Below are positions 1,115 to 62,642 of a DNA stretch of 64,000 nucleotides, piece by piece. Within the stretch, counting starts at the first letter, position 1, and each line of letters opens with the position of its first letter. Origin of the DNA: a phage. The stretch is from the sequence record PX915677.1; one strand, 5' to 3'. The notes beneath the pieces are model-generated. The model made no database searches. It saw nothing but the letters and a program-made list of their open reading frames with translations, and was not told the DNA's origin. The position numbers were made by a program, and so were the translations under genes.

Positions 1115-1147
1115 TTCTTTGTCTACATATAACAAGGAGGACAACCT

Positions 1148-1660
1148 ATGGCAATGCCAGATTTCAGAGGGGCTTTTACATATAACCCAAATACAGGGCA
1201 TCTTTTCTGGTCTATGAGTAACGTATTCAATAAACAGAAAGGGAAACGTGCTGGATGTATTAATAATAAAGGATATCGTGTATTAACCTTCAAGAAGAAA
1301 TCATACCTAGAGCATAAGGTCATAGCTGAACTCTTTCTTCCTAAAGTAGAAGGGAAGGATTATGTCAACCATAAGAATGGAATAAAAGACGATAACAGGA
1401 TTGAGAATCTAGAGTGGTGTACTCAACAAGAAAACTGTACACATGCTTTTGAAACAGGCCTCTCAACACCTAGGAGTCTTGAGGATAACCCTAATTCCAA
1501 ACTCACTAAAGAGCAAGTTCTCTTTTGTTTGGAGAACTACAAACCGAGAGATAGAGAGTTTGGAGCTAGAGCCTTAGCTAGAAAGTTTGGGGTCTCTAAA
1601 AGCACAATATCTCTCATTACTAAAGGCGTAAACTGGAAGGAGGTTTATTATGATGCCTGA
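1148..1660 (+). CDS. HNH homing endonuclease
   Basis: HNH motif ...DYVNHKNGIKDDNRIENLEW...; C-terminal HTH-like region; SD aaggagg; overlaps next gene by 11 nt as expected for an inserted free-standing HEG. Confidence 0.75.
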   Translation: MAMPDFRGAFTYNPNTGHLFWSMSNVFNKQKGKRAGCINNKGYRVLTFKKKSYLEHKVIAELFLPKVEGKDYVNHKNGIKDDNRIENLEWCTQQENCTHAFETGLSTPRSLEDNPNSKLTKEQVLFCLENYKPRDREFGARALARKFGVSKSTISLITKGVNWKEVYYDA

Positions 1661-14424: not shown

Positions 14425-14443
14425 TAATCTTTAAGGAGGACTT

Positions 14444-15496: not shown

Positions 15497-15508
15497 AGGA
15501 GATTTGAT

Positions 15509-16477
15509 ATGGGACTTTTCGGAGGCGGGGGTAGTAAAACTACTTCCCAAATGATTCGCCCTGAATACATTCAACAGTATATTGACCAGCTTAACCAACA
15601 GATTGGTAATACTAGTTCAGGGGATTATGTTTATCGTGACAGTGTAGGGTTTAATAACAATCAGACAGAGGCACTTAACAACCTAGCACAATCTGGCGCT
15701 CTAGGTACTCTCTCACAGCAGTATATGGATGCAGCAGGTCAAGGCTTGGGTTATCTAGATAATGCCTATAAAGGTTATCAGAGCCTCTCTGGACAAGGTG
15801 GGATTACTGGAGAGCAGATTGGTGCTCTCGCTGGTCAACTGTATGATGATGACGCTGTGCAAGCAGCCATTACAGCTAATAATGAACAGGTTCAACAGAA
15901 CTTGGCACGTAATGCTCTTCCTCAGTTGGCTCAACAGTTTGCCGGTCAACAAGGTTCAGGTGCTCGTATGGCTAAGTCTTTTGCCCAAGGTGATGCTCTG
16001 AATCAGATGCAAGGGCAAGCAACAGATATTACCAATAGTGCATATAACTCGGCTATCAGCCAAGCTGAAAGCATCCTCTCTGGTAATAGACAGAATCAGG
16101 CAGCTGCTCTCTCTGGTCTTTCTAATATTGGTTCTAACCTTTCTAACCTAGGTCAGCAGGGTGCTAATTTGTCTCAACAGCAAATAATGAATCAATGGAA
16201 TGCAGGGTTGCAGCAACAACAGCAACAACAGAATGAATATGATAATGCCTACCAGAATGCTCAGAACGCAGCTAATTGGGGATGGCAAGATATCAATAAC
16301 CAACTCGGTGCAGCAGGTGTACTTAACGGTGCTCTCGGACAAACTACAACTACTAAAACATCTGGTGGCAAAGGTGGTTTCCTTGGTGGAGCTATGAGTG
16401 GTGCAGCAGCTGGCTCTTCCTTTGGACCTTGGGGTGCATTAGCTGGGGGTGTAATCGGTGGGTTGGCTAGTACTTAA
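15509..16477 (+). CDS. Gln/Asn/Gly-rich internal virion (ejection) protein, paralog B
   Basis: 322 aa; same architecture as 14444..15496; C-terminal GGFLGGAMSGAAAGSSFGPWGALAGGVIGGLAST. Confidence 0.4.
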   Translation: MGLFGGGGSKTTSQMIRPEYIQQYIDQLNQQIGNTSSGDYVYRDSVGFNNNQTEALNNLAQSGALGTLSQQYMDAAGQGLGYLDNAYKGYQSLSGQGGITGEQIGALAGQLYDDDAVQAAITANNEQVQQNLARNALPQLAQQFAGQQGSGARMAKSFAQGDALNQMQGQATDITNSAYNSAISQAESILSGNRQNQAAALSGLSNIGSNLSNLGQQGANLSQQQIMNQWNAGLQQQQQQQNEYDNAYQNAQNAANWGWQDINNQLGAAGVLNGALGQTTTTKTSGGKGGFLGGAMSGAAAGSSFGPWGALAGGVIGGLAST

Positions 16478-27488: not shown

Positions 27489-27787
27489 TATTCTATTCCA
27501 CGCTCTTTAAGAGCTTCTAACAATCCGTTGTGATTAGCAGCACATTCTGTGTACTGGTCCTGATACCACTCCAACGTAGTGGCTAGTGCTTTTCCTTGAG
27601 CACTCTCTAAAAGAGGTAGGTCAACCCTACATTCAGCTTTTAGGTTTGTTGGTAAGGGCATTGATTGCCTGCTGTTGTCGCTCGTTGAACAAGCTGATAA
27701 ACTAAAAGCTAGCAAAATCCCCGTACAACTCAATAGCTTTTTCTTTATATGCACACCTAGCTCCTTCCAGTGTATCATGAAAACCAA
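27488..27787 (-). CDS. lipoprotein (o-spanin candidate)
   Basis: Signal peptide KKKLLSCTGILLAFSLSAC with lipobox LSAC; short Cys/Pro-containing mature part. Confidence 0.4.
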
Positions 27788-28160
27788 GCCAAATAACCTT
27801 ATCCTCGAATCCTATTCGAGCAGTCCATTTGTTAACATCCTTCCTATACCCGACACCTTTTATGCCTGTTATAGAATTCTTCTGAGCAGATGTATTCATC
27901 TGATTCTGCGCATTGGTTGCTTTTCTTAGGTTAGTCCAAGAGTTGTTAGATTTAATCTGATCTTTGTGGTCAATATCAGTATCAGGGATTTCCCCTGTTT
28001 TTAAATACCAAGCCACTCTGTGCGCTTTATGCGCTTTTCCATTAAATCTAATAATAATGTATCCAGCATCTATCAAACAACCGGCTTCTTTTCCAGCAAA
28101 CCTAGAGTTCCATTGATTGCTCTTCTTTTCAGAGCTTCTCCATGTTAGCTTTCCTGACAC
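27702..28160 (-). CDS. HNH homing endonuclease with AP2-type DNA-binding domain
   Basis: HRVAWYLKTGEIPDTDIDHKDQIKSNNSWTNLR HNH_3-like motif plus GVGYRKDVNKWTARIGFEDKVIWLGFHDTLEGARCAYKEKA AP2-like domain. Confidence 0.7.
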   Translation of the reverse strand: MSGKLTWRSSEKKSNQWNSRFAGKEAGCLIDAGYIIIRFNGKAHKAHRVAWYLKTGEIPDTDIDHKDQIKSNNSWTNLRKATNAQNQMNTSAQKNSITGIKGVGYRKDVNKWTARIGFEDKVIWLGFHDTLEGARCAYKEKAIELYGDFASF

Positions 28161-28183
28161 TTCATCATAGGATAAAAACTCTT

Positions 28184-28528
28184 CTATTCCTTCGATTTTA
28201 AAACCCTCTCAGCTTCTTTCTGTCTCTGGTTAAATAGAGAGACATACTCATCACTAGCGCAGACATTATAAAAAACTGGTTTAGTTTTCTCATAATGCAT
28301 CTCTTTATAAATGGTTTCCGTGTTCTTCTTCCAGTTAGATAAACCGGTAAGAACCCTCTGAGCAACTTCATCAGCTGCTCTATTTCTTTCAATCTCTAAC
28401 TCTTGTTGATGTTTCTCTTTGTCCAGATTACTGCTGTCTGTTTGATATTCGTTAAACTTCATACCACCAAAGAATACAAGAGCTGAGAAAACGATAAACC
28501 CTAAGTTATCACTTAATGTGTTTTGCAT
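28184..28528 (-). CDS. membrane-anchored coiled-coil protein (i-spanin candidate)
   Basis: N-terminal TM LGFIVFSALVFFGG then charged helical domain; start moved to ATG 28528 because the listed start lies inside the upstream terminator. Confidence 0.35.
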   Translation of the reverse strand: MQNTLSDNLGFIVFSALVFFGGMKFNEYQTDSSNLDKEKHQQELEIERNRAADEVAQRVLTGLSNWKKNTETIYKEMHYEKTKPVFYNVCASDEYVSLFNQRQKEAERVLKSKE

Positions 28529-34992: not shown

Positions 34993-35277
34993 TCAACCTC
35001 TTGGGAATGGCATCAAAAATTCCACAGCAGATTTAATTTCATTATTGATTCTTGAATCACGATAAGAGATAAACTTACCTTTACTATCACGTAACATTAC
35101 ATGGGTTCTGGCTGTTTTGTGAGGGAGCAATGTGATACTAGTTGGAATGGCATCAATCCCTACAGCGTATTTGTCAATAGTCTTACTTTCAGCCAACAGA
35201 TAAGACCAAGTACGCGGTTTCTGCTCCGGGCGGTTAGGGTATGTGTCCCGAATCTGAACCATAGCTAATTTATTCAT
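34993..35277 (-). CDS. hypothetical protein, tandem paralog 1
   Basis: Shares KTARTxVxLR..GKFISY...A.E.L.PFP.G with 35279..35533. Confidence 0.45.
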   Translation of the reverse strand: MNKLAMVQIRDTYPNRPEQKPRTWSYLLAESKTIDKYAVGIDAIPTSITLLPHKTARTHVMLRDSKGKFISYRDSRINNEIKSAVEFLMPFPRG

Positions 35278-35278
35278 A

Positions 35279-35533
35279 TTAAACTCCTTTAGGGAATGGG
35301 ATGAGATTTTCTACTGCAACACGGAAAGATTTTTCTACGTTCTTATTCTTATAAGAAATGAATTTACCATCAGCACCACGAAGGATTACATTAGTGCGAG
35401 CTGTTTTTGGGTTAATCCCAATCATCCGTTCGATGATCTTGTTTGATTTGTTGTGGTGGTTAGTGAAAGTCCACTTAACAATCTTGCCATCTCTGGTTAC
35501 ATCAAAAATATTTACGATTTTTACAATAGACAT
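35279..35533 (-). CDS. hypothetical protein, tandem paralog 2
   Basis: See 34993..35277. Confidence 0.45.
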   Translation of the reverse strand: MSIVKIVNIFDVTRDGKIVKWTFTNHHNKSNKIIERMIGINPKTARTNVILRGADGKFISYKNKNVEKSFRVAVENLIPFPKGV

Positions 35534-35567
35534 ATTTATTACCTAAGAAGTTTATTTTGGTTTATAT

Positions 35568-38004: not shown

Positions 38005-38661
38005 TTAACTCTCCACAGTTTTCTTCAGAGCTGCCCATGAGATTGGGTAGAGTTTAGCCATCTCTTCATCCAGAGATTTAGCAAACACTCGAACTTCATA
38101 TTGAGCGTGAGATGAGAGTCGCTGACGACACAACTCAAACCAGCCATACAAAGAACCAGTCCACACCCACTCAGTGATCATCCCCTGAGGAAGAACAAAT
38201 CGAGCTTGCTCTGGTGCAATAAATTCAATCAACTTGTCATATGCTGCTAGAGAAGCTTCATATGCATCGTTAATCAGCATTAATGCTTCAGCTCGCTCTC
38301 CGTTGATGAGTTGAATCCCTGAACCTGCATGGAGGTCCGAAGGTCTCGCAAAAATCTCTTTAGGGATGAAGACTTCAACTGCTCCATCTTTATACCGCCG
38401 GGACATTTCGTTCCACGAGAATCCAACCTGATGCTTCTGTAGTTGACGAGCGATTGCAATTGGAGCCTTACAACGAAAGGACACTTGTGGGTGACGGAAC
38501 GGAGTGCAGTGTTTCTCTCTAGCCAAGAAGTTAATCAGCCTAGTATCACGATCATTCAAATCACCCTCTCGTACAACACCAAAAGAAACTCTTGCAGCAT
38601 TAACAACAGTTTTATCACTGCCCATAGCTTCAATCAATGTTGCTTGCAATTGTTCATTCAT
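38005..38661 (-). CDS. thyX: flavin-dependent thymidylate synthase (ThyX-like), variant signature
   Basis: ThyX-like ...KHQVGFSWNEMSRRY tail (canonical RHR appears as KHQ) and overall size. Confidence 0.55.
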   Translation of the reverse strand: MNEQLQATLIEAMGSDKTVVNAARVSFGVVREGDLNDRDTRLINFLAREKHCTPFRHPQVSFRCKAPIAIARQLQKHQVGFSWNEMSRRYKDGAVEVFIPKEIFARPSDLHAGSGIQLINGERAEALMLINDAYEASLAAYDKLIEFIAPEQARFVLPQGMITEWVWTGSLYGWFELCRQRLSSHAQYEVRVFAKSLDEEMAKLYPISWAALKKTVES

Positions 38662-39133
38662 ACTTCAACTTCTCCTTGTTATAAGCAATCTCTGCTTCCT
38701 CTGGAGTATGGAAAGTTCCTAAATGCTTAGTCTTTCCGTTAACTCCGATTATAGCTCTGAATTTTGTACCACTAGCCGTCTCTCTGATGTAAACACCCAT
38801 TGGAAGTTTTCCAGCTTTTCCGGCTCTATTGTATTGTTTTCTGTTATGACAGTTTGTAGATGGGTCAACATCTCTTAGGTTTTTAAGAGAGTCATCCAGT
38901 TTAATCTGGTTGATGTGATCAATCTCAAACTCAGGCATCTTTCCATAAGAGAAAAACCAAGCTAATCGACATGCTCTGTAAGATTTCCCTTCATAATAGA
39001 TGTACCTGTAACCTAATGTTGAGACACACCCAGCAATGTTCCCTGATACTCTCCTACCTTTGGTATTCTTCCACCTAAAGATTCCAGTATCAGGGTCATA
39101 TGCTAAGTCTTCTTTTATCTTATCAGTTAACAC
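38654..39133 (-). CDS. HNH homing endonuclease with AP2-type DNA-binding domain
   Basis: YRACRLAWFFSYGKMPEFEIDHINQIKLDDSLKNLR plus AP2-like GVYIRETASGTKFRAIIGVNGKTKHLGTFHTPEEAEIAY. Confidence 0.7.
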   Translation of the reverse strand: MLTDKIKEDLAYDPDTGIFRWKNTKGRRVSGNIAGCVSTLGYRYIYYEGKSYRACRLAWFFSYGKMPEFEIDHINQIKLDDSLKNLRDVDPSTNCHNRKQYNRAGKAGKLPMGVYIRETASGTKFRAIIGVNGKTKHLGTFHTPEEAEIAYNKEKLKYE

Positions 39134-39646: not shown

Positions 39647-40210
39647 TTAGTAAGACACGTCACCACTTGAATGGGACATGTTGCTCTTGACGAAGTAGCA
39701 ATACTTGCCAAGACCTTCATTAATTTCTTGAAGCATACTCTGATCGACAGGGTAAGTGGCTAAATCGCCATCAAACTCATCCATCTTCTCAATAATACAC
39801 ATCAAGGTCATGCACATATCAGAGAGCATACCGTCCATGTCTAGATCAGCATTACCCTCTGAGAACCAAGCGTGGGATAGGTAGTTAGCTGCTGTAGCAT
39901 CCACTTTAACACAGTGGTATCGCATACGTTCAGCAATACGATCTCCTACTTGTCGTGCGTAATCTTCCAGCTCATCAAACATACCATGAACACCCTGAAA
40001 TCCTGCACCAGAAACGTTCCAGTGGTAGTTCTTAGCTTTGATATGCAAGAGTTCCATGTTAGCTTGTAAGCAGCTCAGGATGTGTTCTAGGCTGTTTGCA
40101 CTAATCATGCCTTGCATTGTTTCAAGGCGAGAGATTGAAAGCTCAGACCGGTCTAACATACTATAACTGTCACGACCAATCTCAGGTAAATCAAAGACAT
40201 TCTTATGCAT
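39647..40210 (-). CDS. Dps/ferritin-like protein
   Basis: NYHWNVSGAGFQGVHGMFDELEDYARQVGDRIAERM matches the Dps ferroxidase-centre region; start at MHKNVFD with SD ggag. Confidence 0.55.
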   Translation of the reverse strand: MHKNVFDLPEIGRDSYSMLDRSELSISRLETMQGMISANSLEHILSCLQANMELLHIKAKNYHWNVSGAGFQGVHGMFDELEDYARQVGDRIAERMRYHCVKVDATAANYLSHAWFSEGNADLDMDGMLSDMCMTLMCIIEKMDEFDGDLATYPVDQSMLQEINEGLGKYCYFVKSNMSHSSGDVSY

Positions 40211-40532
40211 TTGGGTTTTCTCCATCAAGTTCAACTGAGTTAGCAACATTACGTGCAATATTATCCATTACCTGCTGGGTAATTACGATGCAGTTCTGTG
40301 GGTCTACTGACTTAGAACGCCCCATTTCAGGGTCATACACCTTAACTCGCTTAGCAGTTGAACCTGTGACCTGAAGAACCTTCAACAGATATCCCTGATT
40401 ACCAATAGACCAAGCAACAACATCACGATTCTTGATAAAGCGACCAAGCATATCACGATGATAAAACTGTTGCATCACCTTGGATTTTGTAATCTCTTCA
40501 GTGGGCGGGGCCACTTTACTCAAATCTAACAT
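40203..40532 (-). CDS. hypothetical protein
   Basis: 109-aa ORF. Confidence 0.4.
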   Translation of the reverse strand: MLDLSKVAPPTEEITKSKVMQQFYHRDMLGRFIKNRDVVAWSIGNQGYLLKVLQVTGSTAKRVKVYDPEMGRSKSVDPQNCIVITQQVMDNIARNVANSVELDGENPNA

Positions 40533-40604
40533 AACTCTCTCCTGTAAAATACAAATTCTTATTGTACTCTATATACATTTGAGAGTTATCATATCTACTA
40601 CCAA

Positions 40605-40814
40605 TCAGTAGTAAATTACTTTAGACATAAAAGAACCAGTGTTAGGGTCTTCATACCAGCGATGTATGTCAGCGCTTTTTACTATTGTGCCCAGAGTCTT
40701 CAACTGTTTCTTAGCAATACGAGCCTCTTTGCGAGTGTCAAACAATTTGATGTTATCTTTTCTCATGTGTTGCTCAAGATTCCAAACAACATGAATAGCC
40801 CACATCTTTTTCAT
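40605..40814 (-). CDS. small protein, tandem triplet family member 1
   Basis: 69 aa ending ...VIYY; family shares W...R.EAR..KKQ...YY. Confidence 0.4.
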   Translation of the reverse strand: MKKMWAIHVVWNLEQHMRKDNIKLFDTRKEARIAKKQLKTLGTIVKSADIHRWYEDPNTGSFMSKVIYY

Positions 40815-41023
40815 TAGTAATGTACCTTTCCGCTAATATAAACACGACCAGAGGAATACTCTCTGGCCTTATGAATACTGATGCTCTTGATCATATCCAT
40901 ATTAAACATAGATTTTTTAAAATCTCGAGCTTGTTGGCGAGTGGGTAGTGCAGTCATAGTCATGCCACCTGATGCCCACTTAATCTTTGCTAACCAAAAT
41001 TGTCTCATGGTGATTGGTCTCAT
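40814..41023 (-). CDS. small protein, tandem triplet family member 2
   Basis: 69 aa ending ...KVHY. Confidence 0.4.
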   Translation of the reverse strand: MRPITMRQFWLAKIKWASGGMTMTALPTRQQARDFKKSMFNMDMIKSISIHKAREYSSGRVYISGKVHY

Positions 41024-41220
41024 TAATAATAAACCTTACTGTTAACACAAAAAGCACCTTCACTATTCACGATAGCTTTTCCTAGTGTAACCTTATTAAG
41101 TCTAAAAGTAGATTTGTATTGATTTTTGACCCTACGTGCGTGCTCTCGAGTCTTAACAAAATCTACAGCTACTAACTCTCCAGTCGTGTTGTCATGTACA
41201 CGAACAATCCACTTTTTCAT
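41023..41220 (-). CDS. small protein, tandem triplet family member 3
   Basis: 65 aa ending ...KVYY. Confidence 0.4.
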   Translation of the reverse strand: MKKWIVRVHDNTTGELVAVDFVKTREHARRVKNQYKSTFRLNKVTLGKAIVNSEGAFCVNSKVYY

Positions 41221-41754
41221 TTACACACCTTTAGATGCAACCACACCTTCAGAGTTATTATAACGACCCTTCACTGCGTAGGAATGTTCCCCTGCATGAG
41301 AGTGCTCAAACATAACCATTTGACCAACACGCATACCAGCACGAACTCGTAAGCTGTGGTGCTTGGTTACGTTATGGAATTCAAATGTCAGCTTACTGCT
41401 ATTAAATCCTGCATCTGCCCAACCGGCGTGAAGGTGGTTCAAACCACAACGAGCCATAGACGAACGCAAAACAAACAGGCTTGAGATGTTATCTGGAAGG
41501 TTAAACTCCTCCATAGAGTGAGCCAAGAAGAACTGACCCGGAGTGATAACCAAACCCTCTTCAGGAATCTTTACTTCCTTCCACTGAAGATTCTCTTTCG
41601 CATCAATATCAACGATGCCATCAGCCTGTTCTTCAACAAGGATAGTATCACCAATACGGATATCCACACTAGCAGCGTTAACATATTTATGCTCCGCATC
41701 CAGATAACCATTGTCAATTACATCGTGCAGTTCAATACTTCCTAGTAAACCCAT
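41221..41754 (-). CDS. dCTP deaminase (dUTPase-fold)
   Basis: LHAGWADAGFNSSKLTFEFHN...RVGQMVMFE pattern of the Dcd/dUTPase family. Confidence 0.55.
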   Translation of the reverse strand: MGLLGSIELHDVIDNGYLDAEHKYVNAASVDIRIGDTILVEEQADGIVDIDAKENLQWKEVKIPEEGLVITPGQFFLAHSMEEFNLPDNISSLFVLRSSMARCGLNHLHAGWADAGFNSSKLTFEFHNVTKHHSLRVRAGMRVGQMVMFEHSHAGEHSYAVKGRYNNSEGVVASKGV

Positions 41755-41763
41755 TCTTATTCC

Positions 41764-43077
41764 TTAGTTATTTTCGTCTATTTCAAAAGAGATTCCACGA
41801 CCCGCTTCATCGGCAAACCGAACTGTACGGGTTTGAGGCTGCAACACTTCAGGGTTGTTGGCAACAAATTGATCAGCGAGACTATCTCCCAAATCCTGTT
41901 CCATATCTTCATCAGTCCACACAGCCCTAACAGGTGCGTTGATATCACCAACAGCGAAACCCTGACCAGAGAACTGACGTGCGCTAACAGTTAAGCCGTT
42001 TGGTCGACCACGAGAGGGTCTAGCCATCCATCGCTCCATAGAATCACTTGTAATACCAAGAGCTTCTTCAAAAGATGTTCTACGAGTAGGGCTTTCTCTT
42101 CGTGACTCTTGTGCTCGACGCATTGCAGGGGCTACAAACACCCCTTCAATTGCATTGTGTCGGTTAGGTTCCTCTTCTCGACCAAGCAGATCACCACCCG
42201 TGTTAGTCGTTAAATTTGTCAACCCCTCAGACCAATACGCATGAATCTGACCAGAACCGTGAAGACTAGACATAATCTGAATCTCTTCATAAGGGATTCC
42301 AAAGAATCGACTCATGTCTCGGTTAACACAATATAGAGCACTTGTTGTATCTTCAATAAGAGAAACCTGACCTAATCCATTGACTAGATGACTAACTGGC
42401 TGAGGTGTGGGAAGATATCGAGTTTGGGCCATGTATTGATGCGCAACTGCTGGAGAGGAAAATCTCAACACTTGTGAGTTAGGCCACTTCTTGTGAACAT
42501 ACCTGATTTCACGACTAGAAACAACCACTGGACAAGGGGAAGTCATAGCCAAATATCCGTGAGAAGTCATGAATAAGTTGTCAAGAGTCATCGCACCACG
42601 GCACATCATAGGAAAATTATCCAATACCTCTTCAATAGAAGTAGGATAATTAAACATGAATTGGATACGAACCCCATTCCACTGAAACTCAATAATATCA
42701 GTGAATGTTAATTGAGAACCCCCAGCATAGGATTCGTTTGTAGCTTCAGCAAGAAGTGATGCATATTCAATATCTTGTGACTCTAGCCATTCCTTCACAT
42801 TACTTTCAATCTCCCGTCCAAGCTCTTGCCAACGATCAGTTGGGATGAAAGTGTTTTGAGTTCTTGGTGTTTGTCCTCTGACAATAAAGATATCAATGTC
42901 ATGTGGAGCTATGTTATTAAGGACAGCATCACGAACAGCCCCACCAGTAATGATGGGACAGATACCATCTGGAATCAAGTTGTTGTTAATCAACTGTTCA
43001 ATGAAGTGACGACCAACAGTGATATCAGGTTGTTGAGCAACCTTATCTTCAATTTGGTTAATCGGGATAACAATCAT
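41764..43077 (-). CDS. nucleotidyltransferase with CCA-adding/poly(A) polymerase-type head domain
   Basis: PIITGGAVRDAVLNNIAPHDIDIFIV closely matches the GGxVRD...DxD class-II tRNA nucleotidyltransferase motif; start at MIVIPINQ one nt after the exonuclease stop. Confidence 0.55.
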   Translation of the reverse strand: MIVIPINQIEDKVAQQPDITVGRHFIEQLINNNLIPDGICPIITGGAVRDAVLNNIAPHDIDIFIVRGQTPRTQNTFIPTDRWQELGREIESNVKEWLESQDIEYASLLAEATNESYAGGSQLTFTDIIEFQWNGVRIQFMFNYPTSIEEVLDNFPMMCRGAMTLDNLFMTSHGYLAMTSPCPVVVSSREIRYVHKKWPNSQVLRFSSPAVAHQYMAQTRYLPTPQPVSHLVNGLGQVSLIEDTTSALYCVNRDMSRFFGIPYEEIQIMSSLHGSGQIHAYWSEGLTNLTTNTGGDLLGREEEPNRHNAIEGVFVAPAMRRAQESRRESPTRRTSFEEALGITSDSMERWMARPSRGRPNGLTVSARQFSGQGFAVGDINAPVRAVWTDEDMEQDLGDSLADQFVANNPEVLQPQTRTVRFADEAGRGISFEIDENN

Positions 43078-43078
43078 T

Positions 43079-43636
43079 TTACATTTTCCAATATAATGAA
43101 GGTGGGTCGTAAGGGTCAAATCCCGTGAGTTCACACAAGAAAAGATAAACCTTAACAGTCAAGTTAACGTCCTGTTCACAATAAGTAAACATATCTTCAG
43201 TGAAAGCATCCCATGCTTCCTCTTGCTCACCGTAGTCACCTTTAAGTTCCTCTAAGAACTCACCCCATTGCTTCAAGCCGTGACCTCTTGGGCCACGTCT
43301 AGGGTCGCCTTTCGGATACTCAGGACTGTCGCCAATACGGTCAGGTTTAAGATATCGACTAAGACATAAAGTGTCAAAGACGTTAAAATTATATTTAATC
43401 AAAGAGGGATACATCTTCTTCAGAGCAGGTAAGTCGAAGTCAATAATATTATGACCCACTAGTACATCTGCTTCTGTCAGTTTACGAATCCCGTCTTCAA
43501 TTTGGTGAGGCCGATAGCCCCACCTTTCACCAGTTTCAACATCGAAGATATAAATACACCATACTTTAGTTATGTCATCGTACAGTGCATTACTCTCGAT
43601 ATCGAATGCAAACACTTTCTTCTTTTTCTTTACCAC
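43079..43636 (-). CDS. DnaQ-like 3'-5' exonuclease (stand-alone proofreading domain)
   Basis: Exo I FAFDIES, Exo [13 protein letters not shown], Exo III YCEQDV. Confidence 0.7.
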
Positions 43637-58617: not shown

Positions 58618-58839
58618 TTAGTAAACTAAACCTGTAGCCTTTGCATCAGGCTGAGGGACTACTTTTGCACTAGGGCGATAGCCATCCACTGAGCCGTTCC
58701 AAAGATTGACACAGGTGATATATCCATCGTCTATGATGTCTGTTTTAATCCAGAAGTGTTTATCATGACCAAAAATACTTCCGTTTGGCAGCGTGGACAA
58801 TTCAACAGTTTTAAGTGACTGCTTAGAGTCTAGTTTCAT
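58618..58839 (-). CDS. small protein, expanded paralog family
   Basis: LKTVELSTLPNGSIFGHDKHFWIKTD...CVNLWNGSV. Confidence 0.4.
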   Translation of the reverse strand: MKLDSKQSLKTVELSTLPNGSIFGHDKHFWIKTDIIDDGYITCVNLWNGSVDGYRPSAKVVPQPDAKATGLVY

Positions 58840-58848
58840 ATAAGTTCC

Positions 58849-59046
58849 TTAATATACCAAACCATGTAAAAGAAACATCCTCTTTGTAAGCTCTGCTTTA
58901 GCTCTGTAATAAGCCTTAGAACCTAACAGGCGGCTCTTAACAAAGAACTTAATGTCATTGCTAACATCTTGTATTAAACGCTCCTGTACAGTTTCTGAGG
59001 AGTTATTAATCGAATCAATTAACACCTTTGTAGATGTGTAATTCAT
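58849..59046 (-). CDS. hypothetical small protein
   Basis: Start at MNYTSTK, 1 nt after lipoprotein stop. Confidence 0.3.
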   Translation of the reverse strand: MNYTSTKVLIDSINNSSETVQERLIQDVSNDIKFFVKSRLLGSKAYYRAKAELTKRMFLLHGLVY

Positions 59047-59047
59047 A

Positions 59048-59347
59048 TCACCACTCCTTACCGGTTGTAATCGTAGAGCCACCACACCACAATGCTGTAT
59101 CAATAACAACATTATCCGGTGTAGACTTCTCTTCGTTGATAGAAGGGTTAGCATTAGAACAGGTTGCTCCGTTCCATCGCATATCAATTTCACCAGAAGG
59201 AATCTTCTCACCCTTATGCCAGCGAGAAACACAAACACCTTCCACTGCTACTGCACACCATCCATCAGGACGGCTCTGTACGCAGCCTGTAAGGGCTATG
59301 CAGACAAGGAAGATACAGATTAAGGATATTACACCACCCCAACTCAT
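59048..59347 (-). CDS. lipoprotein (Cys-rich)
   Basis: Signal peptide ISLICIFLVCIALTGC with lipobox LTGC. Confidence 0.5.
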   Translation of the reverse strand: MSWGGVISLICIFLVCIALTGCVQSRPDGWCAVAVEGVCVSRWHKGEKIPSGEIDMRWNGATCSNANPSINEEKSTPDNVVIDTALWCGGSTITTGKEW

Positions 59348-59366
59348 AATTACCTCCTATTAGATT

Positions 59367-59400
59367 TGGTGGACTATCTGGAATCGAACCAGAAGCTCAC
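59367..59400 (-). other. tRNA-like 3' fragment (T-arm plus acceptor-CCA), degenerate
   Basis: Minus-strand ...TCTGG-TTCGATT-CCAGA-TAGTCC-ACCA; no pairing 5' acceptor strand found by eye. Confidence 0.3.
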
Positions 59401-59487
59401 TAAGAAAGTAATTCCCACTGTTATAAAAGCACTTGCCTCAACAGGGATACACTAACTCTGGTGCCGCACCCATACTAGCCCTAAATG

Positions 59488-59563
59488 TGGTGCGCCCTAC
59501 AGGACTCGAACCTGTAACCAATAGCTTAGAAGGCTACTGCTCTATCCATTGAGCTAAGAGCGC
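59488..59563 (-). tRNA. tRNA-Arg (anticodon TCT)
   Basis: Hand-folded cloverleaf: acceptor GCGCTCT/AGGGCGC, D-arm GCTC-AATGGAT-AGAGC, anticodon loop CTTCTAA, T-arm ACAGG-TTCGAGT-CCTGT, encoded CCA. Confidence 0.8.
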
Positions 59564-59571
59564 AGAATTAT

Positions 59572-59736
59572 TTAGATCATATCTCGCTTGGTGATATGAC
59601 CACATGTTTTACATCGAAGTATATAACGAGTACCTGTGTCTTCTATTTGACCAATCTCATTATATATGTGTAAACGAATTTCTTTTATTGTCTCCCAATC
59701 ATGGAGATGGAAGAAACGTTTAAACCACTTGAACAT
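59572..59736 (-). CDS. hypothetical small CxxC protein
   Basis: Internal start MFKWFKRFFHLHDWE...; ends ..RCKTCGHITKRDMI. Confidence 0.25.
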   Translation of the reverse strand: MFKWFKRFFHLHDWETIKEIRLHIYNEIGQIEDTGTRYILRCKTCGHITKRDMI

Positions 59737-59743
59737 AATAACC

Positions 59744-59995
59744 TCAAGCACAAGCAGGGAGAGTGATGATTTTATGCTTACCGTCAAACTCTCCAAACAA
59801 ACCCAAGAATGTAGGACTGTAAGTTCCAGTGCAAACAAACTCATCAAACAATGCGTTATAGCTAGGCTTAATCTTCCAAGCCCATACATAACCCATCTTA
59901 TCGATTGCAATGTAACGAGTGTTCAGAGGAACAGTCATCATCACATCGTCAACTTCGATCACTTTAGTTATTGGTGCAGCTTGAAAGTTTTTCAT
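59744..59995 (-). CDS. hypothetical protein
   Basis: 83-aa ORF. Confidence 0.35.
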   Translation of the reverse strand: MKNFQAAPITKVIEVDDVMMTVPLNTRYIAIDKMGYVWAWKIKPSYNALFDEFVCTGTYSPTFLGLFGEFDGKHKIITLPACA

Positions 59996-60225
59996 TACAT
60001 TTCCTCTAATTTAAGAGTTGCTTTATACTCTGTAACTGGAACGTGCCCAGCGAATGAAAGCTTATGGGCAGGATGTGATAAATTTACAGAAAAACCTCCC
60101 CCAATCTTCATGTAGAACTTCTTTTTGTCCCAAGATGGGCACTCATCAAGTGAGAAGATTGATCCAACGCTCAAACCTCGGAAAGTCTTTTGGTCTGTTT
60201 TAGTTGAGCCTAGAATGATATTCAT
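59995..60225 (-). CDS. small protein, expanded paralog family
   Basis: FRGLSVGSIFSLDE...FSVNLSH; ATGA coupling with upstream small ORF. Confidence 0.4.
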   Translation of the reverse strand: MNIILGSTKTDQKTFRGLSVGSIFSLDECPSWDKKKFYMKIGGGFSVNLSHPAHKLSFAGHVPVTEYKATLKLEEM

Positions 60226-60398
60226 ACTTTACCTTTAATGAAAATGTCATTACCACAGACACAGCATGAACGAACAACAGTAGCGCCACGCTGAACGATA
60301 CGAACCTCTTCCTTAACCAGATTGACACGAGCGCCGCAGCAAGGAGAGTTGACATAAGAGTAACCAGCTTGAGTATTCTTGATTGTTTGATTAGACAT
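60222..60398 (-). CDS. small Cys-rich zinc-ribbon protein (58 aa)
   Basis: MSNQTIKNTQAGYSYVNSPCCGARVNLV...RSCCVCGNDIF; SD gaggaag; not in ORF track. Confidence 0.35.
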   Translation of the reverse strand: MSNQTIKNTQAGYSYVNSPCCGARVNLVKEEVRIVQRGATVVRSCCVCGNDIFIKGKV

Positions 60399-60442
60399 TT
60401 TAGCTTCCTCTTGTTAGTTTAAGTAAGAGTTGTCCCTTAATT

Positions 60443-60471
60443 AAAACAACAAAGGCCGCCTTCGGGCAGCC
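60443..60471 (-). terminator. rho-independent terminator (minus strand)
   Basis: ggcugcc-cgaa-ggcggcc stem (G-U pair valid on minus strand only) followed by UUUGUUGUUUU. Confidence 0.6.
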
Positions 60472-60476
60472 TCTCT

Positions 60477-60728
60477 TTATTGACTCACACCACGAATCAG
60501 ATGATTCTGTAGCGTCCCGTCTTCTGCATTATACAGGAATGCAAACATCAATTCTTTAGCCACATCTCTTGAACAATTAAGACACTTAGAGATTTGCGTT
60601 AGTTGCATGTTGCGTTCTGTGTGTTCCATCAAGGCAATGCGAATGATTTCTCGCATACCTATTACATGAACTGTTTTAACCGGCATAGGTCCAATTGCCT
60701 TGCTTGTTACGAATGGCTGACATTGCAT
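60477..60728 (-). CDS. hypothetical protein
   Basis: 83-aa ORF; start ambiguous (alternative ATG at 60686); overlapping 45-aa ORF 60676..60816 also possible. Confidence 0.3.
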   Translation of the reverse strand: MQCQPFVTSKAIGPMPVKTVHVIGMREIIRIALMEHTERNMQLTQISKCLNCSRDVAKELMFAFLYNAEDGTLQNHLIRGVSQ

Positions 60729-61136
60729 GAATCCAGAAGCCTTCCAGTTTCAGAGCACCATTAGCTACTGCATCCATACGTTCAGGGCGGTTCATACGTT
60801 TGGTTGATACTTTCATACCTATCTCTCTTTGTTAGTGGAGGCATTATTGCCAGTTGATATAAGGGATAGCCCTAGTCAGTAGACTAATCCTGACCGCGTA
60901 CTCATTGCCGACCTTCTCTGCCTAAGAGTTCAGGTTCTAGAGCTATCTCTTATCCCAACTGGTGAAGACTCCCTACCCCTAGGAAGTCTCCTGAATCCCA
61001 AACCAATACGTACCCCTACATATCAGAAAGTCTTTCGAAAATTAACAGGTTTTAGTCTAACACCGGATGTTCGAGCAAGCTCTCCCTAGCGGTGTGGCAT
61101 ATGCCTGAATTAATAAGTTAATGAGGAACACCCTCA

Positions 61137-61164
61137 CATAGCCCTCTGATAAACACAAGGGCTA
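61137..61164 (-). other. conserved stable hairpin element (copy 2)
   Basis: atagccct/agggctat 8-bp perfect stem with 12-nt loop just after stop of 61175..61393; preceded by the shared 13-mer. Confidence 0.4.
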
Positions 61165-61174
61165 TAAGTCGGTG

Positions 61175-61393
61175 TTACTTTTGGGATAAACACAGATCAG
61201 GTCGTGGCATAACAGTGGTTGATAGACCGAAGACTTCAACAGAACCACTGCTCAAGTTAGCAGCCTTACACAAACCATCAGGGGTTTTATCTTCTAGCAT
61301 CAGCCAGAAACGTTTATCATAAGAGAAAACATCACCACCTTTAACGTCCTCTGCATTTGCATATTTAGGATAATCAACTACTTTAATTTCCAT
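61175..61393 (-). CDS. small protein, expanded paralog family
   Basis: KGGDVFSYDKRFWLMLED...ANLSSGSV. Confidence 0.4.
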   Translation of the reverse strand: MEIKVVDYPKYANAEDVKGGDVFSYDKRFWLMLEDKTPDGLCKAANLSSGSVEVFGLSTTVMPRPDLCLSQK

Positions 61394-61403
61394 CTAATTG
61401 CCC

Positions 61404-61622
61404 TTATTGATATATAGAAAGGTGGATAAGTTTATTAACATGAGCGAAGTTAGGAAGGATTTGCATCTCATTGTTGAAGATATTAAAACAACGAACCCCG
61501 CCCTCTACAGCATAAGCAGATTTCTGAAACAGACTGCCTCCCCACACAAATACATCATGTGTTTCAAGAGATCGTAACTGAACAGCTTCGTCAACAATCT
61601 TCTTTTCAATGTTCATATTCAC
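61404..61622 (-). CDS. small protein, expanded paralog family (divergent)
   Basis: LRSLETHDVFVWGG... Confidence 0.35.
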   Translation of the reverse strand: MNMNIEKKIVDEAVQLRSLETHDVFVWGGSLFQKSAYAVEGGVRCFNIFNNEMQILPNFAHVNKLIHLSIYQ

Positions 61623-61870
61623 TTCCGATTGGTAATTACTGCATCATGGATAACTGAAACAGGTAAGTTTGAATCTAGCTTCATTACTTGATTGGTGCTT
61701 AAACTGAGCACTACACAACCATTCCGAAGATCAGTCTCTGACACATGTGGTGTATATAACTGAACGATCATGTAATAATCAATACATGTTGCCTTAACTT
61801 GGAATACATCACCAAGTTTCAAATCACCCACACACAATTCTTTAGCTTTCATCTCAAGATCAATCTTCAT
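61619..61870 (-). CDS. small protein, expanded paralog family
   Basis: LCVGDLKLGDVFQVKATCIDYYMI. Confidence 0.4.
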   Translation of the reverse strand: MKIDLEMKAKELCVGDLKLGDVFQVKATCIDYYMIVQLYTPHVSETDLRNGCVVLSLSTNQVMKLDSNLPVSVIHDAVITNRK

Positions 61871-62096
61871 CTTTAGCCTCTATGTTGGTTATGTGAAGAT
61901 CACTACGTACTTGGCAGACTTCATCCCGTTTAAAAGGCATGAGCTTTCCAGTTACCACATCAACACAGTTCACATAGTTATCTGCGTATAGTGTGTCGGT
62001 TCTAATATAAAGAGAGTCTTTACGCTCAAACAGAACCCCCGGCTTCATGTTATTTAAGCGAAGCATTGTACGATCGGATTTAATATTAACTTTCAT
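61860..62096 (-). CDS. small protein, expanded paralog family
   Basis: LRLNNMKPGVLFERKDSLYIRTD...CVDVVTGKL. Confidence 0.4.
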   Translation of the reverse strand: MKVNIKSDRTMLRLNNMKPGVLFERKDSLYIRTDTLYADNYVNCVDVVTGKLMPFKRDEVCQVRSDLHITNIEAKDED

Positions 62097-62098
62097 CT

Positions 62099-62356
62099 TT
62101 AATCCACCTTATTGGTAAGTCGAGCATTATCAACTACCTGAACAACAGTATCTTTTCTCAACATTGTTATTCTATCCGAAGTGAGATCTACTACTACTCT
62201 TTCGTCAGGCTTCCAACTAGCTGAATAAACGGTTGAGGAATCTAGCTTTACTGTAAGATATATTTTATTTTTAGGTGGAACAGTTTCAAAAACACTCCCC
62301 ACCTTCAGGTCTTTCAGTTGCTTGACTACAGGGGCTGTATTAATATCATGCTTCAT
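62099..62356 (-). CDS. small protein, expanded paralog family
   Basis: Start at MKHDINTAPVV with SD aggag; VKQLKDLKVGSVFETV... Confidence 0.4.
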   Translation of the reverse strand: MKHDINTAPVVKQLKDLKVGSVFETVPPKNKIYLTVKLDSSTVYSASWKPDERVVVDLTSDRITMLRKDTVVQVVDNARLTNKVD

Positions 62357-62642
62357 TGTTAATCTCCTGCTGCTTAGCAATAGCCACTCGTAAGTCTTCA
62401 TTAGCACGAGCAAGGCGCAACACTTCATGATTGAGGTTCTGAAGACGTTTGTTTCTGTCTTCAACTTGCATAATAAGATCGTTGAGTGTTACTTTAACTT
62501 TCTCGTTATACATCTCATCCACTCGAACTAGTGATTTATACATTCTCTCCCAGCTTGCTGCTTTGTTTCTGAGAACAATAAACCCTATAACGCTGATAGT
62601 TAAACAGCTTACAAAAAGGAATTTATATACTTCTAAAGTCAT
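62346..62642 (-). CDS. membrane-anchored coiled-coil protein
   Basis: N-terminal TM FLFVSCLTISVIGFIVL followed by heptad-rich helical region. Confidence 0.4.
   Translation of the reverse strand: MTLEVYKFLFVSCLTISVIGFIVLRNKAASWERMYKSLVRVDEMYNEKVKVTLNDLIMQVEDRNKRLQNLNHEVLRLARANEDLRVAIAKQQEINNEA

What the first reader, a model, noticed from the sequence alone, without database searches (positions are those of the whole stretch)
40605..41220. Tandem triplication of a 65-69-aa protein ending in an aromatic pair
Three back-to-back genes with abutting stop and start codons encode small basic proteins sharing W...R.EAR..KKQ and a C-terminal ..V(I/H/Y)Y. This is local gene amplification, with members distinct from the larger paralog family.
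Basis: seen in the sequence. Interest (0 to 1): 0.4.

Follow-up and report, generated by a model that had tools for sequence, protein, structure and literature searches.

The report
Three tandem small basic phage paralogues
Three adjacent genes of a phiEco32-like coliphage encode old, diverged copies of one tiny, strongly basic protein of unknown function, probably a DNA- or RNA-binding accessory factor: real, but an ordinary kind of phage gene family.

Summary
On the minus strand, 41220-41023 (65 aa), 41023-40814 (69 aa) and 40814-40605 (69 aa) are the orthologues of phiEco32 genes 71, 70 and 69. They follow dCTP deaminase with the junctions TAA|ATG, TAATG and TAATG. All three match PHROG 4939 (E about 1e-28) and match each other in profile comparisons (96-98%). 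AlphaFold gives copies A and C the same strand-strand-helix-strand-strand fold (pLDDT 89).

This is not a recent amplification. The copies are 23-29% identical and share no DNA similarity. Each has orthologues in several Gordonclarkvirinae genera and is under purifying selection (dN/dS 0.12-0.25). Copy content varies: copy B is in 99 phage records, A in 95 and C in 65. Some relatives carry further copies between thioredoxin and ThyX.

The family is tiny (about 23 representatives among 1.84 billion proteins). It has no Pfam, PADLOC or solved-structure match. Every member is basic (pI 9.7-11.0), with invariant W, T-R, A-R and K. There is a suggestive, unproven profile similarity to the AP2-like DNA-binding domain of the phage's own HNH homing endonucleases.

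My best guess, at about 0.4, is small nucleic-acid-binding accessory proteins made together with the replication and nucleotide-metabolism enzymes. Interest is low to moderate.

The parts
41023..41220 (-). Copy C: 65-aa basic protein, orthologue of phiEco32 phi32_71. It is the accessory member, found in 65 of 99 related phage records.
   Evidence: ORF; phrog_4939 E=1.2e-27; phiEco32 annotation; tblastn count; AF2 pLDDT 89.4 with elements E2-10, E16-22, H25-38, E42-51, E57-59; median dN/dS 0.25.
40814..41023 (-). Copy B: 69-aa basic protein, orthologue of phi32_70, or 64 aa if translation starts at the second in-frame ATG at 41008..41006. It is the core member, present in all 99 related records.
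   Evidence: (E=6e-28). The two in-frame ATGs 15 nt apart recur in nearly all relatives. Median dN/dS 0.12.
40605..40814 (-). Copy A: 69-aa basic protein, orthologue of phi32_69, and the last gene of the coupled run. Found in 95 of 99 records.
   Evidence: (E=1e-28). AF2 pLDDT 88.8, pTM 0.72, with elements E2-11, E20-25, H28-40, E45-56, E60-63. Median dN/dS 0.25.
41221..41754 (-). dCTP deaminase gene (177 aa). Its stop codon abuts the start of copy C, so it heads the translationally coupled run.
   Evidence: Pfam DCD PF22769 E=3.7e-34; TAA at 41223..41221 directly followed by ATG at 41220..41218.
41228..41232 (-). Shine-Dalgarno-like AAAGG for copy C, inside the last codons of dCTP deaminase.
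   Evidence: Read from the sequence: 5'-TCTAAAGGTGTGTAAATG-3' on the minus strand.
41033..41037 (-). Shine-Dalgarno-like AAGGT for copy B, formed by the Lys-Val codons of the conserved C-terminal K-V-Y-Y of copy C.
   Evidence: Sequence. The Lys codon is AAG in 11 of 11 C copies that are followed by another copy.
40824..40828 (-). Shine-Dalgarno-like AAGGT for copy A, formed by the Lys-Val codons of the C-terminal K-V-H-Y of copy B.
   Evidence: Sequence. The Lys codon is AAG in 16 of 18 B copies. The two exceptions (AAA) are Bas92 and Bas94, where B is the last copy.
40531..40589 (-). Conserved intergenic hairpin just after copy A. It pairs with the ribosome-binding site of the next gene (phi32_68-like, 40532..40203). 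It contains AAATGTATA (40580..40572), one mismatch from the phiEco32 gp36 promoter consensus, and marks the 3' end of the unit.
   Evidence: RNA fold -24.3 kcal/mol, z=-3.4. The motif was found, but that motif is not enriched in the window. The consensus comes from PMC8948821. A promoter is annotated at the same place in SU7. The region is conserved in three genera but shows no formal covariation.

Best explanation
The window is a Kuravirus (phiEco32-like) coliphage. The three genes are anciently diverged paralogues of a family restricted to phiEco32-like prolate-headed (C3 morphotype) podophages (PHROG 4939). The proteins are 64-82 aa long, strongly basic, and fold as strand-strand-helix-strand-strand.

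Shown:
- They sit at the tail of the middle-class replication and nucleotide-metabolism gene cluster.
- They are arranged for stop-start translational coupling behind dCTP deaminase. The ribosome-binding site of each downstream copy is built from the Lys-Val codons of the upstream copy's conserved C-terminus.
- The copies are differentially retained: B is core, A nearly so, C accessory.

Inferred:
- They act by binding a polyanion, most probably DNA or another nucleic acid. Binding would use the exposed basic stripe on the single helix (invariant R28 and R32, near-invariant K35, with T27 as helix cap) and the basic face of the N-terminal hairpin.
- This core resembles the beta-hairpin plus helix of the AP2-type DNA-binding domain carried by the phage's own HNH homing endonucleases.
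- The paralogues have probably specialised on different targets. That would explain why they are kept as distinct, conserved genes yet can be lost one at a time.
For: Identity and arrangement:
- The region is 95-98% identical to phiEco32, SU10 and relatives, and the genes equal phi32_69-71.
- The cluster is the middle class, with DNA polymerase and nucleotide-metabolism genes (PMC8948821).
- Junctions and Shine-Dalgarno motifs are read from the sequence. The AAG versus AAA Lys codon tracks whether a coupled gene follows, with Bas92 and Bas94 as natural controls.

Real genes:
- dN/dS is 0.12-0.25.
- Two AF2 models are confident and share one topology.

Ancient paralogy and distribution:
- Three orthogroups with no DNA repeat between copies.
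- Record counts are 99 for B, 95 for A and 65 for C.
- A second locus between thioredoxin and ThyX holds further members.
- One distant member lies in Salmonella phage 7-11.

Basic character:
- All 51 members examined have pI 9.74-11.03 and net charge +6 to +11, despite about 25% identity.
- W5, R28, R32 and K35 are invariant among the 95 sequences of A2. With more distant members W5, T27, R28 and R32 are invariant, and A31, K35 and the terminal Y are at least 90% conserved.

AP2-like link:
- hhalign of the family against the AP2-like C-terminal domains of Kuravirus-type HNH endonucleases gives 79-83% probability, E about 1e-5, score 28.6. Two hundred column shuffles gave mean 7.9, sd 1.6, maximum 15.1.
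- The same register is found for each orthogroup and against the full-length HNH alignment.
- That HNH domain is a true AP2 domain. It hits the solved AtERF1 and WRI1 structures at E about 8e-6 and Pfam AP2 at E=5e-6, which is below Pfam's own gathering score.
Against: - There is no direct evidence of nucleic-acid binding.
- The AP2 link is weak. It falls to 67-76% with 12 HNH-AP2 sequences. With the 8 sequences from unrelated phages only, it falls to 9% (E=3.5e-3). Against plant AP2 domains it is 1.6%.
- No member hits Pfam AP2.
- The similarity covers only about 31-34 columns.
- The predicted topology lacks the first AP2 strand and adds two strands after the helix.
- The invariant Arg and Lys lie on the helix, which in AP2 domains does not touch DNA.
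- A basic surface could equally bind an acidic protein.
- The proteins were not detected in the SU10 proteome, although the neighbours gp65, gp67 and gp68 were. Short Lys/Arg-rich proteins give few tryptic peptides, so this is uninformative.
Confidence: 0.4

Rival explanations
1. They are inhibitors or modulators of host proteins, for takeover or anti-defence. Small basic proteins would dock on acidic surfaces of host factors, like the small proteins scattered through the T7 DNA-metabolism gene cluster (gp1.2, gp2, gp5.5, gp5.7, gp5.9). The diverged paralogues would target different host proteins.
For: - Copies are present or absent among close relatives.
- Sequence variation is concentrated in patches. 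In copy B, residues about 33-42 read SMFNMDMIKS, TMLTGDVVNS or SMFNTDLTKS while the rest is identical.
- Copies are exchanged between genera.
- The family is very narrow.
- The region also accepts other small ORFs and homing endonucleases.
- Gordonclarkvirinae resist restriction-modification systems by an unknown mechanism (PMC11990801).
- The T7 analogy is from my own knowledge.
Against: - The genes are in the middle cluster, not the early host-takeover cluster.
- Overall dN/dS is well below 1.
- There is no match to any PADLOC model, although that library holds defence proteins, not anti-defence proteins.
- Uniform strong basicity across all paralogues fits one common class of polyanionic ligand better than different protein targets.
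Confidence: 0.25
2. They are accessory subunits or regulators of the phage's dTTP-supply enzymes (dCTP deaminase, ThyX, thioredoxin). They would be made in fixed ratio with those enzymes by translational coupling, for example as scaffolds of a dNTP-synthesising complex.
For: - In Gordonclarkvirinae the members always lie directly after dCTP deaminase or between thioredoxin and ThyX.
- The stop-start coupling to dCTP deaminase is read from the sequence.
- The neighbouring enzymes are acidic, dCTP deaminase with pI 5.6, which is complementary to basic partners.
Against: - In Salmonella phage 7-11 the single member is not next to dCTP deaminase or ThyX.
- HNH endonucleases or unrelated ORFs separate the array from dCTP deaminase in ES17, Bas89, SU10 and KBNP1711 without loss of the array.
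- Copy number varies from 1 to 4 while the enzymes are constant.
- dCTP deaminase and ThyX work without such partners in other organisms (general knowledge).
Confidence: 0.12
3. They descend from the DNA-binding domain of homing endonucleases. They would act in homing conflicts, occupying the endonuclease target sites in the neighbouring conserved genes so that a co-infecting phage's endonuclease cannot cut. Alternatively they are selfish leftovers.
For: - The profile similarity is strongest to the AP2-like domain of the Kuravirus HNH endonucleases themselves.
- The two loci that hold family members are the same two places where HNH genes are inserted. In ES17, Bas89 and contig L020 the insertion is between dCTP deaminase and the array. 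In this window it is between thioredoxin and ThyX.
- AP2 domains of homing-endonuclease origin are known to be reused by phages as sequence-specific silencers, the CasPRs (bioRxiv 10.64898/2026.02.23.707548).
Against: - The homology is unproven.
- The genes are under purifying selection and copy B is universal, which does not fit decaying remnants.
- No endonuclease target site has been mapped.
- Co-location may only reflect a region that tolerates insertions.
Confidence: 0.08
4. They are small toxins or ribonucleases of the RelE/YoeB type. Copy B ends in His-Tyr, as E. coli YoeB does (from memory), and conserved Arg and Lys could be catalytic.
For: Copy B has a C-terminal K-V-H-Y, and the family has a near-invariant terminal Tyr and invariant Arg residues. 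They are small basic alpha/beta proteins.
Against: - The topology differs. RelE-type proteins have two N-terminal helices (my knowledge).
- The His is present only in copy B.
- No antitoxin-like partner is evident.
Confidence: 0.03
5. They are chance ORFs, or not protein-coding at all.
For: The ORFs are short, have no Pfam domain, and were not detected by SU10 proteomics.
Against: - dN/dS is 0.12-0.25 in all three.
- Orthologues are conserved in 65-99 genomes.
- The AF2 folds are confident.
- Starts are coupled and have Shine-Dalgarno motifs.
- There is no Rfam match on either strand.
Confidence: 0.01

Closest known systems
PHROG 4939 (phage protein family of unknown function): phiEco32 gp69, gp70 and gp71, SU10 gp69-71 and their orthologues
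   Same: All three window proteins match the profile end to end at E about 1e-28. They are 91-100% identical to the phiEco32 proteins.
   Different: Nothing differs; they are members. The family has no assigned function. In the papers I searched, the paralogy, the copy-number variation and the second locus are not discussed.
AP2/ERF-type DNA-binding domain (Pfam PF00847) as found at the C-terminus of phage HNH homing endonucleases
   Same: A W/F-containing strand, a hairpin, a second strand ending in F/L-x-T, then a helix starting T-x-E-x-A-R/K. The hhalign probability is 67-83% over 31-34 columns, always in the same register. Size and basic character are similar.
   Different: - There is no Pfam AP2 hit.
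- The first AP2 strand is missing, and two extra strands follow the helix.
- The invariant basic residues are on the helix.
- Support collapses to 9% with HNH-AP2 domains from unrelated phages, and to 1.6% with plant AP2 domains.
- No AP2 structure is among the top fold matches.
CasPRs: phage proteins with CapR and AP2 domains that silence cas genes by binding inside their coding sequence (bioRxiv 10.64898/2026.02.23.707548)
   Same: They are phage-encoded. They possibly use an AP2-like module of homing-endonuclease ancestry as a free-standing DNA binder.
   Different: - CasPRs need a Cys-rich CapR zinc domain in addition. They are much longer and occur in prophages of Bacillota.
- The proteins here are 65-69 aa and have no CapR domain; copies A and B have no cysteine and copy C has one.
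- The proteins here belong to a virulent coliphage.
- No target is known.
Small host-directed proteins inside the T7 DNA-metabolism gene cluster (gp1.2, gp5.5, gp5.7, gp5.9)
   Same: They are similar in size, lie among replication and nucleotide-metabolism genes, and are dispensable in some relatives (analogy from my own knowledge).
   Different: No sequence or fold relation was found. Several of the T7 proteins are acidic, whereas these are all strongly basic.
DUF2188 (Pfam PF09954)
   Same: The W-x-V-K/R strand and T-x-x-E-A helix pattern, and a later I-H, look alike by eye.
   Different: Profile-profile probability is only 2.9%, against an alignment of 30 verified PF09954 proteins. I do not regard it as related.

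Membership tests
PHROG 4939 | Full-length match to the family profile | tested here: met
   E=1.2e-27, 6e-28 and 1e-28, covering profile positions 1-67 or 2-67 of 67.
One paralogous family (the three copies with each other) | Significant full-length similarity between the copies and a shared fold | tested here: met
   hhalign A-B 98.2%, A-C 96.5%, B-C 96.3% over 61-64 columns. Permutation z=8.1, 6.3 and 2.3. The AF2 models of A and C have the same order of elements. BFVD models of the B and C orthologues match the A model at TM 0.63-0.85.
Recent tandem amplification | Residual nucleotide similarity between copies, with copy number varying by whole repeat units of near-identical sequence | tested here: not met
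   There is no direct DNA repeat linking the copies. Protein identity is 23-29%. Each copy has its own orthogroup across genera.
AP2/ERF DNA-binding domain (PF00847) | Match to the Pfam AP2 model | tested here: not met
   No AP2 hit at E<=1 for the three proteins, nor at E<=10 for 33 family members.
AP2/ERF DNA-binding domain (PF00847) | Profile-profile similarity to verified AP2 domains | tested here: inconclusive
   79-83% against 4 Kuravirus-type HNH-AP2 domains, which are themselves verified against 1GCC and 7WQ5. 67-76% against 12 domains, 9% against the 8 unrelated ones, and 1.6% against plant AP2 domains.
AP2/ERF DNA-binding domain (PF00847) | Three-stranded antiparallel sheet followed by a packing helix (strand-strand-strand-helix) | tested here: not met
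AP2/ERF DNA-binding domain (PF00847) | Sequence-specific binding of double-stranded DNA through the sheet | not testable with these tools
   Needs gel-shift assays or DAP-seq with purified proteins.
DUF2188 (PF09954) | Profile similarity to verified members | tested here: not met
   hhalign probability 2.9%, 26 columns. No Pfam hit.
CasPR (CapR + AP2 silencers) | CapR zinc-finger-like domain with conserved cysteines in addition to AP2 | tested here: not met
   The proteins are 65-69 aa. Copies A and B have no cysteine and copy C has one, so there is no room for and no trace of a CapR domain.
RelE/YoeB-type toxins | RelE-like fold, and a catalytic C-terminal His-Tyr or Arg-Tyr set conserved across members | tested here: not met
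   No RelE, YoeB or ParE chain is among the top structural matches. The His before the terminal Tyr occurs only in copy B.
Translationally coupled operon tail | Overlapping or abutting stop and start codons, with a ribosome-binding site inside the upstream gene | tested here: met
   The junctions are TAA|ATG, TAATG and TAATG, with AAAGG or AAGGT 7-10 nt upstream. The Lys codon choice tracks the presence of a downstream copy. Actual coupling of translation was not measured.

The most novel reading that the evidence does not exclude
The family is a set of free-standing, minimal AP2-like DNA binders that phiEco32-like phages derived from the DNA-binding domain of their own homing endonucleases. 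The paralogues would recognise different DNA sequences. They would act as sequence-specific silencers or protectors, for example shielding the phage's dCTP deaminase-ThyX region from rival homing endonucleases. Alternatively they could contribute to the unexplained resistance of Gordonclarkvirinae to restriction-modification systems, or silence host or competitor genes as CasPRs do.
Probability: 0.1. Interest if true: 0.65.

Novelty: new member of a known kind. Interest (0 to 1): 0.3.

Why it matters
As it stands, this is a tidy example of something common in phage genomes: old tandem paralogues of a tiny lineage-restricted protein. It does not change any picture.

It has some practical value.
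- Gordonclarkvirinae are now in the BASEL collection and are used in therapy studies. Their molecular biology is poorly known, and their resistance to restriction is unexplained (PMC11990801).
- The family offers natural genotypes for comparison: B only, B+C, A+B and A+B+C.
- It has an invariant Arg/Lys motif that can be mutated.
- It may show a homing-endonuclease DNA-binding module being turned into an independent small protein.

If that link and DNA binding were confirmed, the family would be a second, much smaller case beside the CasPRs of phages reusing AP2 modules.

Tried and rejected
- Pfam, PADLOC and PDB-sequence searches with single proteins, with 33 members and with a 95-sequence profile found nothing.
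- I recalled a resemblance to DUF2188, tested it with real PF09954 sequences, and rejected it.
- I considered a RelE/YoeB-like toxin because of the C-terminal His-Tyr, and rejected it on fold and conservation.
- A relation to the early-region paralogue family is rejected.
- The 'fourth copy' in SU10, Paul, KBNP1711, ECBP2 and IME267, suggested by longer BLAST spans, turned out to be unrelated ORFs. One type is a 63-aa membrane protein.
- tblastn with divergent metagenomic members against GenBank phages found nothing.
- The search to enlarge the HNH-AP2 profile from the large protein database returned a single hit, so I took eight domains from GenBank phages instead.
- Rfam, sigma-70 promoter and terminator scans of the region gave nothing above background.
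- The intergenic hairpin shows no formal covariation.
- The SU10 proteome does not list the three proteins.
- I found no paper that discusses these genes.
Full report
**What the window is.** The region around the finding is 95-98% identical at the DNA level to about 60 Escherichia and Shigella phages of the genus Kuravirus (subfamily Gordonclarkvirinae), including phiEco32 and SU10. In phiEco32 the three genes are annotated as hypothetical proteins phi32_71, phi32_70 and phi32_69. They lie between dCTP deaminase (phi32_72) and phi32_68, the Dps-like protein, thioredoxin and ThyX. This is the cluster described as the middle expression class, which holds DNA polymerase and the nucleotide-metabolism enzymes (PMC8948821).

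**The observation.**
- On the minus strand the ORFs are 41220..41023 (65 aa, here copy C), 41023..40814 (69 aa, copy B) and 40814..40605 (69 aa, copy A).
- The junctions read TAA|ATG (dCTP deaminase to C), TAATG (C to B) and TAATG (B to A).
- Pairwise BLASTP is weak: C-B E=6e-5, B-A E=3e-4, C-A E=0.09.
- In a shuffle test C-B has z=8.1, B-A z=6.3 and C-A z=2.3.
- The link becomes solid with profiles. All three match PHROG 4939 end to end at E about 1e-28. Alignments of each copy's orthologues match one another at 96-98% hhalign probability over 61-64 columns.
- AlphaFold2 models of A (pLDDT 88.8) and C (pLDDT 89.4) have the same order of elements: strand, strand, helix, strand, strand.
- Public viral models of B-type and C-type orthologues superpose on the A model at TM 0.63-0.85.
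- No other ORF of the 64-kb window belongs to the family.

**Are they real genes?** Yes.
- Across 10-18 relatives per copy the median dN/dS is 0.25 (A), 0.12 (B) and 0.25 (C).
- There is no Rfam match on either strand.
- Each start has a Shine-Dalgarno-like AAAGG or AAGGT 7-10 nt upstream.
- For B and A this motif is made by the Lys-Val codons of the conserved C-terminal K-V-x-Y of the preceding copy. The Lys codon is AAG in 11 of 11 C copies and 16 of 18 B copies. It is AAA in most terminal A copies that keep the lysine (9 of 13).
- It is also AAA in the two B copies (Bas92, Bas94) that have become the last gene.
- This fits stop-start translational coupling from dCTP deaminase through C and B to A, although coupling itself was not measured.
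- Copy B has two in-frame ATGs 15 nt apart in nearly all relatives. The upstream one overlaps the stop of C. Which one is used is open.

**Age and distribution.**
- The three copies share no detectable DNA repeat.
- A profile search of 5.8 billion proteins found 92 clusters, which fall into exactly three groups, one per copy.
- A full HMMER scan of 1.84 billion representatives found only 24 hits at E<=1e-3. One of these is a low-complexity artefact.
- By tblastn against 50,697 GenBank phage records, B-type genes occur in 99 records, A-type in 95 and C-type in 65. All are E. coli or Shigella phages of this group. These counts include RefSeq/GenBank duplicates.
- A and B occur in Kuravirus, Nieuwekanaalvirus and Suseptimavirus. 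C occurs in the first two only. The duplications therefore predate the genera.
- Single copies have been lost or replaced. Bas92 keeps only B. Bas94 has B+C. ES17, SU7, ECBP2 and IME267 have A+B.
- The extra ORF that lengthens the locus in SU10 and Paul, and the one in KBNP1711, ECBP2 and IME267, are unrelated proteins.
- There is mosaicism. KBNP1711 has a Kuravirus-type A (97% identical) but B and C at only 52%. EP335 has a near-identical C (92%) but a divergent B.
- Suseptimavirus IME267 and several metagenomic relatives carry one or two further members at a second locus, between thioredoxin and ThyX.
- In this window that second locus holds an HNH homing endonuclease (38654-39133).
- One distant, unannotated member lies in Salmonella phage 7-11, in a different neighbourhood.
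- BFVD models from SE131, GAP52 and related phages match weakly.

The statement that the triplet is distinct from the larger paralogue family (58.6-62.5 kb, minus strand) is correct.

**What the proteins look like.**
- With distant members included, the invariant positions are W5, T27, R28 and R32 (numbering of copy A). A31, K35 and the C-terminal Tyr are at least 90% conserved.
- T27 caps the single helix. R28, R32, K35/K36 and K39 fall on one face of it, by my reading of the helical periodicity.
- All 51 members examined have pI 9.74-11.03 and net charge +6 to +11, although the paralogues are only about 25% identical. Positive charge is therefore itself a conserved feature.
- The neighbouring enzymes are acidic.
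- No Pfam, PADLOC or PDB-sequence match exists.

**A lead: the AP2-like domain of homing endonucleases.**
- By eye, the N-terminal two-thirds (W-strand, hairpin, strand, then T-x-E-x-A-R helix) resembles the AP2-type domain at the C-terminus of the phage's own HNH endonucleases.
- That domain is a genuine AP2 domain. One of the window's three HNH proteins hits Pfam AP2 at E=5e-6, below Pfam's gathering score. A profile of four such domains hits the solved AtERF1 and WRI1 AP2 structures at E about 8e-6.
- hhalign of the family against those four domains gives 79-83% probability and E about 1e-5 over 34 columns. The score is 28.6, against 7.9 +/- 1.6 (maximum 15.1) for 200 column shuffles.
- The same register is recovered for each orthogroup separately and against the full-length HNH alignment.
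- Controls score lower: DUF2188 2.9% and the early paralogues 0.2%.
- When I widened the AP2 profile with eight domains from unrelated phages, support fell to 67-76%. With those eight alone it fell to 9%.
- The predicted topology is not that of AP2. The first strand is missing and two strands follow the helix.

I therefore treat the relationship as possible, not established, at roughly 35-45%. It is notable that both loci holding family members are also the places where HNH genes are inserted in one relative or another.

**How it most likely works.**
- Shown: the three proteins are made from the distal end of the middle replication and nucleotide-metabolism cluster, in an arrangement built for coupled translation behind dCTP deaminase.
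- Shown: directly after copy A comes a conserved 72-nt spacer.
- The spacer's hairpin (-24.3 kcal/mol, z=-3.4) pairs with the ribosome-binding site of the phi32_68-like gene. It contains AAATGTATA, one mismatch from the phage sigma-factor promoter consensus.
- This hairpin marks the end of the unit, but it has no covariation support.
- Inferred: the proteins bind a polyanion through the conserved basic helix face and hairpin, most probably DNA or another nucleic acid. The paralogues would have diverged in target.

I put about 0.4 on this. The main rivals are host-protein inhibitors, in the manner of the small T7 class II proteins (0.25), and partners of the dTTP-supply enzymes (0.12). Derivatives of homing-endonuclease DNA-binding domains acting in homing conflicts come next (0.08).

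**Comparison with what is known, and novelty.**
- The genes have been annotated since 2008 and are grouped in one PHROG.
- No paper I could find discusses them.
- SU10 proteomics did not detect them.
- The BASEL study notes that Gordonclarkvirinae resist restriction-modification systems by an unknown route. It points at the dCTP deaminase and nucleotidyltransferase locus. The triplet sits in that locus, but nothing links it to the phenotype.
- The nearest functional analogy, if the AP2 lead holds, is the CasPR family of AP2-containing phage silencers. Those need a CapR domain that is absent here.

I class the finding as a new member of a known kind: an old tandem paralogue set of a small lineage-specific phage protein.

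**Verdict.** The function is unknown, with a reasoned but unproven nucleic-acid-binding hypothesis. Interest is 0.3.

Noticed in passing
window 58618-62464, minus strand (58618-58839, 61175-61393, 61619-61870, 61860-62096, 62099-62464): A separate family of at least five 72-121-aa paralogues in the early region (phrog_6570, 9955, 16423, 7832), sharing an L-x-x-G-x-V-F motif. It is unrelated to the triplet (hhalign 0.2%).
   Followed up: partly
window 1133-1657 (+), 27705-28208 (-), 38654-39133 (-): Three paralogous HNH homing endonucleases with AP2-like C-terminal domains. The third sits between thioredoxin and ThyX, the slot where Suseptimavirus-like relatives carry extra members of the small basic family. 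Other relatives have an HNH gene between dCTP deaminase and the array.
   Followed up: partly
window 40531-40589 (-), within the 72-nt spacer 40533-40604: A conserved hairpin (-24.3 kcal/mol, z=-3.4) that pairs with the ribosome-binding site of the phi32_68-like gene. It contains AAATGTATA (40572-40580), one mismatch from the phiEco32 gp36 promoter consensus. Transcripts started at that promoter would lack the 5' arm, so only read-through mRNA would be occluded. The sequence is conserved in three genera but shows no formal covariation.
   Followed up: partly
window 41006-41023 (-) and the same junction in L001-L027: Copy B has two in-frame ATGs 15 nt apart in nearly all relatives. The five-codon leader (MRPIT, MRAGL or MEFGT) is conserved in length but not in sequence. 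Annotations disagree between 64 and 69 aa.
   Followed up: partly
copy B residues about 33-42 (roughly window 40900-40930) and the equivalent part of copies A and C in relatives: Variation is concentrated at the end of the helix and the following loop. Copy B reads SMFNMDMIKS, TMLTGDVVNS, SMFNTDLTKS or SMFNVDLTKS while the rest is identical. This suggests an interaction surface or patchy recombination.
   Followed up: no
L004 (KBNP1711), L024 (EP335): Mosaic arrays. KBNP1711 has copy A 97% identical to the window's but B and C only 52%. EP335 has copy C 92% identical but B 48%. Single genes of the array appear to be exchanged between genera.
   Followed up: no
L028 (Salmonella phage 7-11, NC_015938) about 40948-41169, minus strand: An unannotated 73-aa ORF (MSKVQWEVHF...KTRAEARAHKK...) matches the family profile (E=1.2e-5). 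It lies between gp054 and gp055, away from dCTP deaminase and ThyX.
   Followed up: partly
window 34996-35310 / 35282-35542 (-) and 14435-15493 / 15497-16474 (+): Two further pairs of adjacent paralogous ORFs: 32% identity, E=6e-13, and 31% identity over 275 aa, E=2e-10.
   Followed up: no
L003 1885-2091 (SU10_072); L004 1906-2097, L007 1698-1889, L008 1998-2189; L009 2033-2254: The gap between dCTP deaminase and the array is a variable insertion site. It holds a 68-aa acidic ORF in SU10 and Paul. It holds a 63-aa predicted membrane protein in KBNP1711, ECBP2 and IME267. In ES17 it holds a 73-aa ORF plus an HNH gene. None of these is related to the family.
   Followed up: partly
window 41764-43134 (-): The nucleotidyltransferase upstream of dCTP deaminase matches phrog_12715 strongly (E=2e-245) but only weakly the poly(A) polymerase/CCA-adding head domain (E=2e-3). 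The BASEL paper suspects that this gene pair underlies a DNA modification and the group's resistance to restriction.
   Followed up: no
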